Origin: Escherichia coli
Lineage (GTDB): Bacteria > Pseudomonadota > Gammaproteobacteria > Enterobacterales > Enterobacteriaceae
DNA length: 64,000 nt
Strand: one strand, 5' to 3'
NCBI RefSeq assembly: GCF_048403405.1
Contig: NZ_CP183129.1
This document shows positions 10,258-24,066 of this stretch, in pieces (position 1 is the stretch's first letter; each line of letters begins with the position of its first letter). The notes under the pieces were generated by a model, which was given only the letters and a program-made list of their open reading frames with translations, had not been told where the DNA came from and did not search any database. The position numbers were made by a program, and so were the translations under genes.

Positions 10258-10614
10258 GGAGTTTACTCACATCTGACAAAATCAATATAAACAGCCCCTC
10301 CGGAGAGGGGCTGGAGAGTGGCGCTATGTGCCATTGCATGGTGCCGGGTGCCTCCCGGTGAATTCAGTACCAGCACCTGAATCCGCGATTATCCCATATA
10401 CCTACTCGCTGATTGCCCCTCCGCACAGGGGGATTCACCATGCCAGTTTCTTTTAACAAACTCCCCGCAAACCAGACAACAGTCAACCGCCTGAATTGTG
10501 AAGTATTTAAAAATTTCTCCCGCTAACTGATACCCGGCTAACAGTCTGGCGTTTTCTTTTTCAGCAACGGGAAAGCAACAACCACCACACCCACCAGCCG
10601 CCCATTTACCACAA

Positions 10615-13960: not shown

Positions 13961-14116
13961 TTACTCCTCAGGTTCGTAAGCTGTGAAGACAGCGACCTCC
14001 GTCTGGCCGGTTCGGATTCGTACCTCGCAGAGGTCTTTCCTCGTTACCAGTGCCGTCACTATGACGGTTAAACAGATGACGATCAGGGCGATTAACATCG
14101 CCTTTTGCTGCTTCAT
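13961..14116 (-). CDS. Hok-family type I toxin (51 aa)
   Basis: Below ORF-track length cut-off; my translation MKQQKAMLIALIVICLTVIVTALVTRKDLCEVRIRTGQTEVAVFTAYEPEE is the canonical Hok/HokD sequence. Confidence 0.85.
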   Translation of the reverse strand: MKQQKAMLIALIVICLTVIVTALVTRKDLCEVRIRTGQTEVAVFTAYEPEE

Positions 14117-14129
14117 AGCCTGCTTCTCC

Positions 14130-14235
14130 TTGACCTTTCGGTCCGTAAGAGGCTAATCTCTATGTGTCGCATAGATATGGCCTCAGATTAATGTTAAGCG
14201 TCTTGCAGGACGCGTAATGTTAACTGGGGCTTTTC
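14130..14235 (+). ncRNA. Putative Sok-like antisense RNA with its promoter, antisense to hok leader
   Basis: TTGACC-17/18nt-TAATCT promoter on plus strand overlapping hok translation start; short hairpin GCGUC…GACGC downstream; inferred from hok/sok architecture. Confidence 0.3.
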
Positions 14236-14374
14236 TCTATCTGCCTTTTGGTGTTCATGCCTGAGACAGATAGCCTCAAGCACCCGCAGTTATTCTACTT
14301 AACTAAGATTTCCCCGCAAACCGTTTTTGTCCGGCACAGTAAATATCCAACTAAACCAATGGCGTTCGCTGTAT

Positions 14375-22282: not shown

Positions 22283-22581
22283 TTTATTCACAGGTGAGGT
22301 AGAGTGCGTGCGCCGGACACGGATAAGAATCCGGCACTGACAGTTTACTAAAAAGGATATATCCCTGAAAAGTCAGGGCATAACACGAAAGCGCCCGGCG
22401 AAGTTAGTCTCTCTGTATAGGTCGTCGTTAAATTTAATTCGATCGTGCGCTTCCGGTTGTGGCAATCCGCGAAATGGCGCGGCGGTAAGTATGGCTGGGG
22501 TTTCCTCCATTGCTCCAGAAAATGCACCGGGTTGTCAGGTTGACCATACGCTTAAGTGACAGCCCCGCCACAATACCCATG

Positions 22582-22633
22582 TGTAGTCTTTGGTGGCATC
22601 AGTTCTACTCCGTGACTGCTCTGCCACCCTTTT
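22582..22633 (+). ncRNA. dicF: DicF-like small RNA
   Basis: GGTGGCATCAGTTCTACTCCGTGACTGCTCTGCCACCC + TTTTT closely matches the K-12 DicF sequence as I recall it, with compensating stem changes; sits between ydfA-like genes and dicB. Confidence 0.75.
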
Positions 22634-23109
22634 TAAAGTGAATTTTGTGATGCGGTGAATGCGGCTAAGCGCACGCGGAACAGTTAAAACCAAAAACAGT
22701 GTTATGGGTGGATTCTCTGTATCCGGCGTTAATTGTTAACTGGTTAACGTCACCTGGAGGCACCAGGCACCGCATCAACAAAGTTCACTTCGGTGATGAA
22801 AGGTAAGAGAAAATGTTGAATGTAGCTATTGAAAACCAGAACGGGTGGAATTATAGTGCACCTGCACCTCATAAAACGGGTGCCGGGCGTGGAAACCCGG
22901 AATTCAATCAAGCGCATAACCGCGCTCAGGCGGTTTTTTTATGCGTCAAGCACAGCCACATTCAGATTATGGTGGGGCGTGCAGGGCAGCTGCAAGGCTG
23001 GCCGGATTCTTGGTTGACCGGTATTTCCACCCCTGTACGCCTCACCACCCTTATGGTCGTGGAAAACCTTGGTGGTGAGTTATTAATACTCAACCAAGAG
23101 GCTGCCATT

Positions 23110-23667
23110 ATGGCTACTATCCCTACCCTTTCTCACCCTGACGTAACCATCGAAAATGGTCGCGCTGTCACTACGTCTGTTGCGGTTGCAGAGTTCTTCC
23201 GCAAAATGCACAAGGACGTTCTGCGCAAAATTGAAACGCTAGAATGCTCTGAAGATTTTAACGAGCGCAATTTTACGCCCGTTACCTACACCGACGCCAA
23301 AGGCGAAAAACGCCCCATGTACCAAATCACCAAAAACGGCTTCGTTTTCCTGGTGATGGGGTTCACAGGTAAAAAAGCCGCAACTTTCAAAGAAGCCTAC
23401 ATCGCTGAGTTCGATCGCATGGAGGAAGAACTGCGCCAGAATAACGCCCCGTCTCCCGACAAAATGATTCACGGGGACGGACGCACCCTGGTTATCCGTC
23501 TCGACGAACACGGCAATATCAAATTCACTGAAACCGTTCCTGACGGCGCAATGGTCTGCACCCTGGATACCTTCCGGTTTTATCTGGAGAAACAAGGATG
23601 GACTCTTGTAAACCGGAGCGCAATTAAAAATATGACTGTGGAGCAATTGCTAAAAATTCATTGTTGA
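23110..23667 (+). CDS. Rha-family phage regulatory protein
   Basis: ATG 23110 after AAGAGG; …ENGRAVTTSVAVAEFFRKMHKDVLRKIETL… Rha domain; ORF track extends in frame to 22813 but that part contains a terminator-like hairpin. Confidence 0.8.
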   Translation: MATIPTLSHPDVTIENGRAVTTSVAVAEFFRKMHKDVLRKIETLECSEDFNERNFTPVTYTDAKGEKRPMYQITKNGFVFLVMGFTGKKAATFKEAYIAEFDRMEEELRQNNAPSPDKMIHGDGRTLVIRLDEHGNIKFTETVPDGAMVCTLDTFRFYLEKQGWTLVNRSAIKNMTVEQLLKIHC

Positions 23668-23677
23668 GGACGCGATA

Positions 23678-23866
23678 ATGGAAACGTCACTACCAAACGT
23701 TAATACGTCTGACGGGTGCTTTAATATTGGTGTTCTGCTCAGTAACAGGGATTTCACCGAGGATGCAATCAATATGAGAAAATATGAACCCTACCTGCTG
23801 AATGACAATTCCATACTCTCCAGAATTGCCCTTCTTAAACTCGGTATTTTCGGAGAGTGGCGATGA
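23678..23866 (+). CDS. dicB: Cell-division inhibitor DicB
   Basis: 62 aa METSLPNVNTSDGCFNIGVLLSN…, same length and strong similarity to K-12 DicB. Confidence 0.85.
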   Translation: METSLPNVNTSDGCFNIGVLLSNRDFTEDAINMRKYEPYLLNDNSILSRIALLKLGIFGEWR

Positions 23867-24066
23867 ACACATTATTCGTACTCATTCTGACTGTACATCT
23901 CAATACTGGTGAGTCGCTTGATGCAATCACCGGCATGTACAACTCAATGAAAGAATGCATGGCTGCCGCAGCGGAACAGAAAATTCCCGGCAACTGTTAT
24001 CCGGTCGATAAAGTTATTCACATGGACAATAACGAAATCCCGGCGGGGCTTAAAACAGCACCGTAA
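23857..24066 (+). CDS. YdfD-like small protein
   Basis: …NTLFVLILTVHLNTGE…AAAAEQKIPGNCYPVDKVIH…; directly after dicB as ydfD in Qin. Confidence 0.7.
   Translation: MAMNTLFVLILTVHLNTGESLDAITGMYNSMKECMAAAAEQKIPGNCYPVDKVIHMDNNEIPAGLKTAP

What the first reader, a model, noticed from the sequence alone, without database searches (positions are those of the whole stretch)
22290..23110. DicF-like sRNA with compensatory stem changes, and rha cassette inserted between dicF and dicB
The DicF-like sequence keeps the single-stranded core and the terminator stem but, compared with the K-12 DicF sequence as I recall it, has paired changes on both stem arms (GGTGG…CCACC versus GGCGG…CCGCC) that preserve base-pairing. 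A dicB-type ribosome-binding context (GAAAGGTAAGAGAAA-ATG at 22813) is retained but now opens an in-frame 99-codon leader that contains a terminator-like hairpin (AACCGC-GCTCAG-GCGGTT + TTTTTTT near 22930) before the rha start, while dicB has its own RBS further on. The leader may be a regulatory RNA element or attenuator for rha.
Basis: partly seen in the sequence, partly recalled or inferred. Interest (0 to 1): 0.45.

Follow-up and report, generated by a model that had tools for sequence, protein, structure and literature searches.

The report
P4-type RNA immunity cassette beside DicF
Between the prophage small RNA DicF and the division inhibitor gene dicB lies an 870-bp cassette in which two known phage regulatory RNAs (IsrK/seqA-like and C4/CI-like) are embedded inside the reading frame of an antirepressor-like rha gene, so it is a new example of a known control system, not a new kind.

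Summary
DicF is at 22578-22629, above Rfam's curated threshold. Compared with K-12 it carries a compensatory C-G to U-A stem change. An ~870-bp rha cassette separates dicF from dicB, which are adjacent in K-12. The 99-codon in-frame leader and its terminator hairpin are real.

One claim fails. K-12's dicB ribosome-binding context sits directly before the window's dicB (ATG 23678), not at 22813.

The leader is a known module, not an unknown attenuator:
- a sigma-70 promoter at 22829-22857;
- an IsrK/seqA-like sRNA at 22864-22940;
- a C4/CI-like antisense RNA at 22965-23052;
- target boxes a2/b2 overlapping the rha Shine-Dalgarno.

Across 40 related leaders, the C4 loop and both of its partner sites co-vary: 18 loop types, cognate pairing -15 kcal/mol against -6.6 for non-cognate.

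The leader shows no amino-acid constraint (pN/pS about 0.8, against 0.27 in rha). Yet its frame has no stop position, against 32 in the other two frames. That matches the nested eta/kil genes of phage P4.

Verdict: a new member of a known kind (P1 immI, P4 immunity, Gifsy-1 isrK). Interest is moderate to low. RefSeq annotates none of the three RNAs at this locus.

The parts
22290..22577 (+). Untranslated region upstream of DicF (dicF precursor), collinear with the K-12 ydfC-dicF intergenic region
   Evidence: Alignment to K-12 Qin. No Rfam match.
22578..22629 (+). DicF sRNA, minority allele: 5' 12 nt replaced, stem GGUGGC/GCCACC
   Evidence: Rfam RF00039, 61.1 bits vs gathering 48. K-12 comparison. 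This allele makes up 12 of 120 DicF copies sampled from IMG/VR. Fold z-score -2.26.
22641..22782 (+). dicF-dicB spacer, about 98% identical to K-12; sub-threshold STnc100-like match
   Evidence: Rfam E-value mode gives 38 bits vs gathering 47.
22779..22789 (+). Left copy of an imperfect 11-bp direct repeat (CAAAGTTCACT) at the cassette junction
   Evidence: Read from the K-12 alignment and the window sequence.
22813..23667 (+). Long ORF (284 codons), eta-like. It starts upstream of the internal promoter, runs in frame through both RNA genes, and continues into rha.
   Evidence: ORF list. PGAP annotates it as a Rha-family CDS. Zero stop positions in 33 of 37 unique leaders vs 18 and 14 in the other frames. 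The same layout is found in P4 eta and six lambdoid phages. BLASTP to P4 Eta gives E 2e-16.
22829..22857 (+). Predicted sigma-70 promoter of the IsrK-like RNA (TTGAAA, 17 nt spacer, TATAGT)
   Evidence: Consensus scan, 10 of 12 matches. A promoter sits in the same register in all 9 loci compared, including P4 and Gifsy-1.
22864..22940 (+). IsrK / P4-seqA-like sRNA. It carries box a1 (GUGGAAA, 22889-22895), box b1 (UCAAUCAAG, 22904-22912) and an intrinsic terminator (22918-22935 plus T-run).
   Evidence: Rfam RF01394, 69.2 bits vs gathering 50. Weak c4-a1b1 match at 25.5 bits. Terminator scan.
22965..23052 (+). C4 / P4-CI-like antisense RNA. Loop b' is UCUUGGUUGA (23008-23017); single-stranded a' is UUUCCAC (23024-23030).
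   Evidence: Rfam RF01695, 78 bits vs gathering 45. MFE -47.4 kcal/mol, z-score -5.05. 27 pairs are 99.6% canonical across 40 sequences, 12 with compensatory changes.
23059..23065 (+). Target box a2 (GUGGAAA), complementary to a'
   Evidence: Direct reading. Cognate a':a2 -12.4 vs non-cognate -6.4 kcal/mol.
23071..23079 (+). GGUGGUGAG, which can pair with the 3' arm of the C4 stem (23041-23049) as an alternative helix
   Evidence: Fold. The matching pair covaries in P4, CTATCGCC/GGCGATAG.
23090..23101 (+). Target box b2 (UCAACCAAGA, 23090-23099) overlapping the rha Shine-Dalgarno AAGAGG (23096-23101)
   Evidence: The only exact match to b2 in the window, apart from its reverse complement, the C4 loop b' itself. 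Cognate b':b2 -15.0 vs non-cognate -6.6 kcal/mol over 18 loop types.
23110..23667 (+). rha short form (185 aa): a Phage_pRha domain plus a C-terminal region shared with the antirepressor family of Gifsy-1 AnrP
   Evidence: Pfam PF09669, E 4.6e-31. PHROGs hits. Codon periodicity and pN/pS 0.27. All 80 relatives align from residue 1.
23652..23662 (+). Right copy of the imperfect direct repeat (AAAAATTCATT); K-12 homology resumes here
23678..23866 (+). dicB, preceded by the same RBS context as K-12 dicB
   Evidence: Pfam DicB, E 1.3e-32. Alignment.

Best explanation
The window carries a dicBF-type prophage operon in which a self-contained RNA immunity cassette lies between dicF and dicB. The cassette is built like the P4 immunity region and P1 immI.

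Proposed mechanism:
1. A promoter (22829-22857) lies inside a long ORF. In P4 the corresponding promoter is constitutive.
2. That promoter transcribes a 77-nt IsrK/seqA-like RNA that usually ends at its own terminator.
3. Read-through transcripts contain a C4/CI-like RNA (22965-23052). By analogy with P1 and P4, it is cut out as a stable antisense RNA.
4. Its two exposed boxes (a' and b') pair with a2 and b2 just downstream. b2 overlaps the rha Shine-Dalgarno, so rha translation from ATG 23110 is blocked. Probably this also lets transcription stop before dicB.
5. The same boxes also pair with a1/b1 in the IsrK-like RNA. That RNA can therefore act as a partner, decoy or activator, as shown for Gifsy-1 IsrK.
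6. The long ORF (ATG 22813, upstream of the internal promoter) can only be translated on transcripts coming from the DicA-controlled upstream promoter through dicF.
7. Ribosomes moving through the leader would melt the RNA structures. Those transcripts would then escape the RNA immunity and express a long Rha form and dicB, as P4 eta does for kil.

Shown here by computation: the three Rfam identities, the promoter register, the three-way covariation, the open frame without amino-acid constraint, and the cassette boundaries.

Inferred from P1, P4 and Gifsy-1 experiments: RNA processing, repression, bypass by translation, and the antirepressor role of Rha.
For: - Rfam matches above curated thresholds for DicF, isrK and C4, in tandem on one strand. 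A weak c4-a1b1 match overlies IsrK.
- The C4-like fold has z = -5.05. Its 27 pairs are 99.6% canonical, 12 with compensatory changes, across 40 unique sequences.
- Variation among 39 unique leaders concentrates in b1, b' and b2 and in a1, a' and a2, and these sites change together.
- Cognate vs non-cognate duplex energies are -15.0 vs -6.6 (b':b2), -13.7 vs -6.7 (b':b1), -12.4 vs -6.4 (a':a2) and -17.6 vs -10.4 kcal/mol (a':a1). The cognate partner is best in 19 of 21 b':b2 combinations.
- The same isrK+C4 tandem occurs in P4 (where it is seqA and CI), Gifsy-1, ST64B, cdtI and four Stx phages.
- A sigma-70 promoter sits in an identical register in all nine loci.
- In rha, pN/pS is 0.27. In the leader it is 0.77, 0.92 and 0.91 in the three frames, and variation by codon position is flat.
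- The rha frame nevertheless has 0 stop positions in 33 of 37 unique leaders, against 18 and 14 in the other frames. It also has 0 stops in 8 of 9 deep lineages, and leader length is always a multiple of 3.
- In P4 the geometry reproduces eta (197-199 aa) and nested kil (65 aa), with the kil ATG at C4 start +142. The rha ATG is at C4 start +145.
- PMC10111431 summarises the P4 mechanism and states that the Rfam C4 and isrK models detect CI and seqA relatives inside Bro-network genes.
- PMC4825925 shows IsrK read-through, the processed STnc1160 RNA and the IsrK-orf45 pairing, and notes the seqA analogy.
Against: - There are no transcript data for this locus. The promoter, terminator efficiency, C4 processing and repression are all inferred.
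- The IsrK fold alone is not exceptional (z = -1.24).
- Gifsy-1 experiments describe IsrK as an activator acting through orf45 translational coupling, not the repressor logic of P1 and P4. The sign of IsrK's effect here is therefore uncertain.
- In Gifsy-1 the long frame is broken. An open long frame is thus not obligatory for the module.
- Three of the 37 leaders carry 1-nt indels that break the frame.
- The N-terminal extension before the internal promoter is only 17 codons here, against about 120 in lambdoid phages.
- Whether upstream transcripts pass the DicF terminator in this strain is not known.
Confidence: 0.72

Rival explanations
1. The leader is purely non-coding RNA. The 99-codon in-frame extension is a chance ORF in G+C-rich structured RNA, and the PGAP 284-aa CDS and the Pfam Phage_ASH match are annotation artefacts.
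For: No codon periodicity and pN/pS near 1 in every frame of the leader. The internal promoter means IsrK-promoter transcripts cannot contain ATG 22813. Phage_ASH coincides exactly with the RNA genes, in P4 Eta as well.
Against: The rha frame has 0 stop positions, against 32 distinct positions in the other two frames, 23 of them absent from the window itself. The same frame is open, and leader length is a multiple of 3, in P4, ST64B, cdtI and four Stx phages despite 16-31% nucleotide divergence. P4 eta translation is reported to prevent termination (summary in PMC10111431).
Confidence: 0.15
2. Gifsy-1-type logic dominates. The short IsrK-like RNA acts in trans as an activator: it opens an inactive read-through mRNA so that an upstream ORF starting at ATG 22969 is translated and carries ribosomes into rha.
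For: The isrK match and architecture. The ATG at C4 start +4 is conserved in all nine loci and corresponds to the first AUG of Salmonella orf45. IsrK a1/b1 are complementary to a'/b'. Experimental demonstration in Salmonella (PMC4825925).
Against: Here the orf45-equivalent is fused in frame to rha rather than ending at an AUGA overlap. The effector differs: a Phage_pRha domain vs ORF6N in AnrP. b2 directly covers the rha Shine-Dalgarno, which suits repression by the C4-like RNA. This rival is compatible with the main explanation and may be one layer of it.
Confidence: 0.3
3. The 284-aa ORF is an ordinary two-domain protein (an Ash domain plus a Rha domain), and the RNA-family matches are incidental to its coding sequence.
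For: PGAP annotation. Pfam Phage_ASH above threshold, E 6.8e-14. PHROGs families span both parts.
Against: Leader pN/pS is 0.77 against 0.27 in rha, with no third-position excess. There are 12 compensatory pairs in the C4 stem. Three-way covariation of the boxes cannot be explained by protein constraint. All 80 Rha relatives found by tblastn with the 185-aa short form align from its first residue, the Met at 23110.
Confidence: 0.04
4. One reading: the hairpin is a simple leader-peptide attenuator of rha, created when the cassette landed behind a retained dicB ribosome-binding site.
For: A terminator hairpin lies inside an ORF that begins with a plausible SD and ATG.
Against: K-12's dicB RBS is at 23661-23677, not at 22813. 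In every record listed, the 22813 context lies under a Rha-family CDS. The hairpin is the terminator of a promoter-equipped sRNA family. This model does not account for the C4-like RNA or its targets.
Confidence: 0.03

Closest known systems
Phage-plasmid P4 immunity region (PLE promoter, seqA, CI RNA, seqC, nested eta/kil genes)
   Same: Same order of elements. The internal promoter is in the same register. The isrK model hits seqA and the C4 model hits CI. A long ORF starts upstream of the promoter and runs in frame into a nested short gene whose ATG lies 142-145 nt after the C4/CI start. The Phage_ASH match covers the same stretch. The conceptual proteins align at E 2e-16.
   Different: The effector is a Rha-domain protein of 185 aa rather than the 65-aa Kil. 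P4 has about 84 extra nucleotides between seqA and CI. The extension before the promoter is 17 codons here. The host context is a dicBF operon, not a satellite's left operon. Rho-dependent termination was not examined here.
P1/P7 immI: C4 antisense RNA with a1/b1 and a2/b2 boxes controlling icd-ant
   Same: RF01695 structure. Two recognition boxes in the RNA each have an upstream and a downstream complement, and the downstream one covers a ribosome-binding site. Specificity varies by matched changes, as in P1/P7 heteroimmunity.
   Different: No icd-like separate small ORF; b2 covers the rha Shine-Dalgarno directly. a1/b1 lie in a separately terminated sRNA. The regulated protein is Rha-type, not Ant. 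No P1 sequence was compared here.
Salmonella Gifsy-1 isrK-orf45-anrP (PMC4825925)
   Same: IsrK with its own promoter and terminator, a C4-like RNA (STnc1160) inside the 'orf45' region, and a downstream Bro-network antirepressor. The ATG at C4 start +4 is conserved. The Rha C-terminal region matches AnrP's PHROG family.
   Different: In Gifsy-1 orf45 ends at an AUGA overlap and the anrP frame has 3 stops in the leader. Here the frame is continuous. AnrP has an ORF6N domain rather than Phage_pRha. The Gifsy-1 locus follows antQ in the late region, not dicF.
E. coli K-12 Qin dicBF operon (ydfABC-dicF-dicB-ydfD)
   Same: The dicF precursor, DicF core, spacer, dicB RBS and dicB are collinear. A DicA-like repressor and a Cro-like gene lie upstream.
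   Different: An ~870-bp cassette lies between dicF and dicB. The DicF allele has a different 5' end and a compensated stem. ydfB/ydfC are replaced by a 128-aa ORF.

Membership tests
DicF sRNA (RF00039) | Covariance-model match above the curated threshold | tested here: met
   61.1 bits vs 48.
DicF sRNA (RF00039) | Located in a dicBF-type operon, downstream of a DicA-like repressor and upstream of dicB | tested here: met
   Collinear with K-12. Pfam HTH_3 and DicB matches.
DicF sRNA (RF00039) | 5' end able to pair with xylR mRNA, as in K-12 | tested here: not met
   K-12 DicF nt 1-20 vs xylR gives -20.3 kcal/mol; the window allele gives -9.5. This defines the K-12 allele's target range, not family membership.
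DicF sRNA (RF00039) | Repression of ftsZ; Hfq binding; RNase E processing | not testable with these tools
   Nucleotides 13-53 differ from K-12 at only 4 positions. The duplex calculation was not discriminating.
C4 antisense RNA (RF01695; P1 C4 / P4 CI) | Covariance-model match and the three-helix fold | tested here: met
   78 bits vs 45. The MFE structure equals the consensus, z -5.05. 12 compensatory pairs.
C4 antisense RNA (RF01695; P1 C4 / P4 CI) | Two exposed boxes complementary to a downstream site at the RBS of the controlled gene | tested here: met
   b' 23008-23017 pairs with b2 23090-23099, which overlaps the SD. a' pairs with a2. Both covary across 18 and 10 types.
C4 antisense RNA (RF01695; P1 C4 / P4 CI) | Upstream copy of the targets (a1/b1, seqA) | tested here: met
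   a1 at 22889-22895 and b1 at 22904-22912 covary. The c4-a1b1 model scores only 25.5 bits vs 46.7.
C4 antisense RNA (RF01695; P1 C4 / P4 CI) | Excised from the precursor by RNase P and other nucleases; represses in vivo | not testable with these tools
   Needs RNA end mapping and genetics.
IsrK (RF01394) | Covariance-model match, own promoter, intrinsic terminator | tested here: met
   69.2 bits vs 50. Promoter matches 10 of 12 positions and its register is shared with Gifsy-1. Terminator.
IsrK (RF01394) | Downstream orf45 ending in an AUGA overlap with the antirepressor start (translational coupling) | tested here: not met
   The equivalent ORF from ATG 22969 is fused in frame to rha. No stop is present.
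IsrK (RF01394) | Trans-activation of the read-through mRNA; Hfq binding | not testable with these tools
   Experimental.
P4 eta/kil-type nested gene with embedded immunity RNAs | Long ORF beginning upstream of the internal promoter, in frame with a nested short gene | tested here: met
   ATG 22813 lies before the promoter at 22829-22857, in the same frame as ATG 23110. The P4 geometry is reproduced.
P4 eta/kil-type nested gene with embedded immunity RNAs | Frame kept open by selection rather than by chance | tested here: met
   0 vs 32 stop positions. 8 of 9 deep lineages are open. There is no amino-acid constraint.
P4 eta/kil-type nested gene with embedded immunity RNAs | Translation of the long form prevents termination; Rho-dependent terminator downstream | not tested
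   Known for P4 only through the summary in PMC10111431. The primary papers were not held.

The most novel reading that the evidence does not exclude
The cassette may be one allele of a combinatorial RNA 'immunity barcode' system. At least 18 b-box and 10 a-box specificities reassort among closely related E. coli prophages. Co-resident prophages could then each control their own antirepressor without cross-talk. In this dicBF context the barcode would additionally gate the toxic division inhibitor and phage-exclusion gene dicB. The 'Phage_ASH protein domain' would then be an ORF selected only so that ribosomes can pass through it, not for its peptide.
Probability: 0.3. Interest if true: 0.5.

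Novelty: new member of a known kind. Interest (0 to 1): 0.3.

Why it matters
- **Annotation.** In the RefSeq locus 100% identical to window 22290-23900, none of the three RNA genes is annotated. The leader is filed as the N-terminus of a 284-aa protein. A spurious partial 'DicB' pseudogene is called at the equivalent of 22699-22782.
- **Pfam Phage_ASH.** This family coincides with the translated IsrK/seqA and C4/CI RNA region, in P4 Eta as well. In this sample it shows no amino-acid-level constraint.
- **Biology.** P4/P1-type RNA immunity is a portable cassette that can sit inside different early operons: between cII and O in Stx-type phages, and between dicF and dicB here. It carries many specificity types.
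- **DicF work.** About 10% of sampled copies are an allele with a different 5' seed, so DicF target sets probably differ between strains.
- **Limit.** None of this changes the known mechanism.

Tried and rejected
- I first took the 45-codon ORF at 22941-23078 to be the Salmonella orf45 equivalent. Alignment with Gifsy-1 showed that the true equivalent starts at ATG 22969, in the rha frame.
- I first suspected the 284-aa ORF was simply spurious. The stop-codon census and the P4 eta precedent argue against that.
- One literature search was badly framed and returned nothing useful.
- The primary P4 papers (PMC94026, PMC176756) are not held. The P4 mechanism therefore rests on a secondary summary and on my reconstruction of eta/kil from the P4 sequence.
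- Whole-RNA duplex calculations of DicF against ftsZ were not discriminating.
- The column-based a2 alignment was disturbed by a 3-nt indel, so I used duplex energies on extracted segments instead.
- A search for extra b2-like targets in the window found none.
- The direction of the event cannot be decided. It may be an insertion here or a deletion in K-12 between the 11-bp repeats.
Full report
**1. What is at the coordinates**

The window is E. coli prophage DNA. Positions 22290-23900 are 100% identical to many E. coli chromosomes, and 307 of 5426 complete genomes hold at least 80% of the stretch.

Rfam at curated thresholds finds three RNA genes on the + strand of the finding:
- DicF at 22578-22629 (61.1 bits, gathering 48);
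- isrK at 22864-22940 (69.2 bits, gathering 50);
- C4 antisense RNA at 22965-23052 (78 bits, gathering 45).

The ORF list shows ATG 22813 opening 284 codons. The Pfam Rha domain lies at residues 120-205 and a Phage_ASH match at residues 14-109. dicB (23678-23866) follows.

**2. Comparison with K-12**

I fetched K-12 Qin and aligned it.

- The window is collinear with K-12 from 22290 through DicF and the spacer (about 98% identity after DicF) to about 22789, and again from about 23652.
- About 870 bp are absent from K-12.
- The junctions carry an imperfect 11-bp direct repeat: CAAAGTTCACT at 22779-22789 and AAAAATTCATT at 23652-23662. The direction of the event (insertion or deletion) cannot be decided.
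- K-12's dicB context, TTGAGGACGCGATAATG, sits directly before the window's dicB.
- The 22770-22835 junction occurs in 399 of 5426 genomes. All 40 records listed, sampled evenly down the ranking, have a Rha-family CDS under the match.

**3. The DicF allele**

The stem changes are real. GGCGGU/GCCGCC in K-12 becomes GGUGGC/GCCACC here: one C-G to U-A double change and one U.G to C-G change. Predicted stability is unchanged.

In 120 DicF copies sampled from IMG/VR, these changes travel as one haplotype, together with a replaced 5' end (CCAUGUGUAGUC instead of UUUCUGGUGACG). The haplotype makes up 12 of 120 copies. This amounts to a single compensatory event, not repeated covariation.

Both DicF alleles occur with and without the cassette.

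The 5' end of K-12 DicF is what pairs with xylR (PMC5069750). Predicted pairing falls from -20.3 to -9.5 kcal/mol for the window allele. The 3' part, used for ftsZ and pykA, differs at only 4 positions between nt 13 and 53.

**4. Anatomy of the leader**

- **Promoter.** A near-consensus promoter, TTGAAA-17-TATAGT (22829-22857), ends 6 nt before the first base of the isrK match. A promoter in the same register is present in all nine loci compared, including P4 and Gifsy-1.
- **C4-like RNA.** It folds into the family's three-helix shape (-47.4 kcal/mol, z -5.05).
- **Box b.** The 12-nt loop holds b' (UCUUGGUUGA, 23008-23017). It is the exact complement of UCAACCAAGA at 23090-23099, which overlaps the rha Shine-Dalgarno AAGAGG (23096-23101). 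With one G-U pair it also complements UCAAUCAAG (22904-22912) in the IsrK-like RNA.
- **Box a.** The single-stranded a' (UUUCCAC, 23024-23030) complements GUGGAAA both at 23059-23065 and in the loop of the second IsrK hairpin (22889-22895).
- **Layout.** This is the a1 b1 - C4 - a2 b2 arrangement of P1 immI. Rfam's c4-a1b1 model gives a weak match over IsrK (25.5 bits).

**5. Comparative test of the RNA model**

tblastn with the 185-aa Rha core retrieved 80 IMG/VR loci at 77-100% identity, all aligning from residue 1.

- Among 39 unique leaders, variation is concentrated in exactly six short boxes, and the boxes change together.
- After adding P4, Gifsy-1, ST64B, cdtI and four Stx phages, all of which have isrK and C4 in tandem, there are 18 b' types and 10 a' types.

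Duplex energies in kcal/mol:

| Pair | Cognate | Non-cognate |
|---|---|---|
| b':b2 | -15.0 | -6.6 ± 2.6 |
| b':b1 | -13.7 | -6.7 |
| a':a2 | -12.4 | -6.4 |
| a':a1 | -17.6 | -10.4 |

- The cognate partner is the best one in 19 of 21 b':b2 combinations.
- a-types and b-types reassort between loci.
- The 27 C4 base pairs are 99.6% canonical, 12 of them with compensatory changes.

**6. Is the leader coding?**

Two results pull in opposite directions, and both stand.

- **No amino-acid constraint.** rha shows strong third-position variation (785/566/1908) and pN/pS of 0.27, against 1.3-1.65 in the wrong frames. The leader is flat (523/649/672), with pN/pS of 0.77, 0.92 and 0.91 in its three frames.
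- **The frame is kept open.** In 33 of 37 unique leaders the rha frame has no stop. The other two frames show 18 and 14 distinct stop positions, 29 of them polymorphic. The exceptions are three 1-nt indels and one divergent leader.

The deep lineages agree. Leader length is always a multiple of 3, and the short-gene frame has 0 stops in 8 of 9 lineages, Gifsy-1 being the exception.

In ST64B, cdtI and two Stx phages the annotated CDS starts 230-360 nt upstream of IsrK, in three of them overlapping the stop of the preceding gene, and lies upstream of the replication gene O.

In P4 the same frame gives ATGs for a 197-199-aa ORF, with a nested 65-aa ORF starting 142 nt after the CI start. These are eta and kil. 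Pfam Phage_ASH matches P4 Eta residues 22-146, which is the translated seqA-CI region.

**7. Mechanism**

PMC10111431 summarises the P4 mechanism:
- A constitutive promoter inside eta yields a quickly terminated transcript.
- That transcript is processed to the immunity RNA CI.
- Kil is translated only on read-through.
- Full-length Eta is translated only from an upstream promoter, and its translation prevents termination.

The same paper notes that the Rfam C4 and isrK models detect CI and seqA relatives inside Bro-network genes.

PMC4825925 shows for Gifsy-1:
- IsrK read-through;
- a processed RNA, STnc1160, in the orf45 region;
- IsrK pairing with that region;
- trans-activation of anrP through orf45 translation.

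It also points out the seqA analogy.

I therefore read the window as follows. In the repressed prophage, the internal promoter makes the IsrK-like and C4-like RNAs. The C4-like RNA blocks the rha RBS, and probably also downstream dicB, by pairing at a2/b2. On derepression of the upstream dicB-operon promoter, ribosomes starting at ATG 22813 translate through the leader and bypass the block.

The RNA identities, covariation, promoter register and open frame are shown here. Processing, repression, bypass and the sign of IsrK's effect are inferred.

**8. The effector**

The short Rha has a Phage_pRha domain, and its C-terminal part matches the PHROG family of Gifsy-1 AnrP, annotated as anti-repressor. 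Direct BLASTP to AnrP is weak (E 0.003), and AnrP's N-terminal domain is ORF6N. The same RNA leader is thus coupled to different Bro-network effectors.

**9. Verdict**

- The element is a new member of a known kind: P4 immunity, P1 immI and Gifsy-1 isrK.
- I found no description of its position inside a dicBF operon; the one survey of dicF neighbourhoods that I read does not mention it (PMC5069750).
- None of the three RNAs is annotated in RefSeq at the identical locus.
- Interest is moderate to low.

Noticed in passing
window 22813-23139 (aa 14-109 of the 284-aa ORF); L089 P4 Eta aa 22-146: The Pfam family Phage_ASH (PF10554) coincides with the conceptual translation of the IsrK/seqA and C4/CI RNA genes. 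In the 53 sequences compared, that stretch shows no amino-acid-level constraint (pN/pS 0.77-0.92 in all frames) although the frame is kept open.
   Followed up: yes
window 22699-22782 (equivalent to L002 3410-3493): RefSeq/PGAP annotates a partial 'DicB' pseudogene here in identical loci. In K-12 a GTG-initiated frame from this spot runs in frame into dicB. The call is therefore likely an artefact of N-terminally extended DicB reference proteins.
   Followed up: partly
window 22641-22782 and 10283-10472 (- strand): The dicF-dicB spacer, conserved with K-12, gives a sub-threshold match to the STnc100 sRNA model (38 bits vs 47). A full STnc100 copy (132 bits) lies elsewhere in the window on the minus strand.
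   Followed up: no
window 14114-14285 (- strand): A sok antitoxin RNA (hok/sok type I toxin-antitoxin) matches at 106.7 bits.
   Followed up: no
window 23041-23049 with 23071-23079: The 3' arm of the C4 outer stem (CUCACCACC) can also pair with GGUGGUGAG downstream, enclosing box a2 in the loop. The equivalent pair in P4 has covaried (CTATCGCC/GGCGATAG). This suggests a conserved alternative helix in unprocessed read-through RNA.
   Followed up: partly
window 22969-22971; same offset in L083-L090: An ATG four nucleotides into the C4-like RNA is conserved in all nine loci. It is in the long-ORF frame and corresponds to the first AUG of Salmonella orf45. In Gifsy-1 the old long frame is still stop-free over the whole 240-nt leader, but anrP is out of frame with it.
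   Followed up: partly
window 22577-22589: This DicF allele has a completely different 5' 12 nt from K-12. It loses the predicted 13-bp pairing with xylR (-9.5 vs -20.3 kcal/mol). The allele makes up 12 of 120 sampled DicF copies.
   Followed up: partly
L012/L015 (genome 2617271340) and L056/L060 (genome 2537561977): In the two cases where two rha-cassette loci came from the same genome, the copies carry different b-box types. This fits the idea that co-resident prophages avoid cross-talk, but the sample is only two genomes.
   Followed up: no
L015, L028, L071 (leader T-runs): The only frame breaks among close relatives are single-base length changes, two in the terminator T-run and one in the a' T-run. 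They could be sequencing errors or phase-type variation.
   Followed up: no
window 22290-22577: The ~290-nt untranslated stretch upstream of DicF is about as conserved with K-12 as coding sequence and starts exactly where the upstream genes diverge. It has no Rfam match. It may hold the RNase processing signals of the dicF precursor.
   Followed up: no
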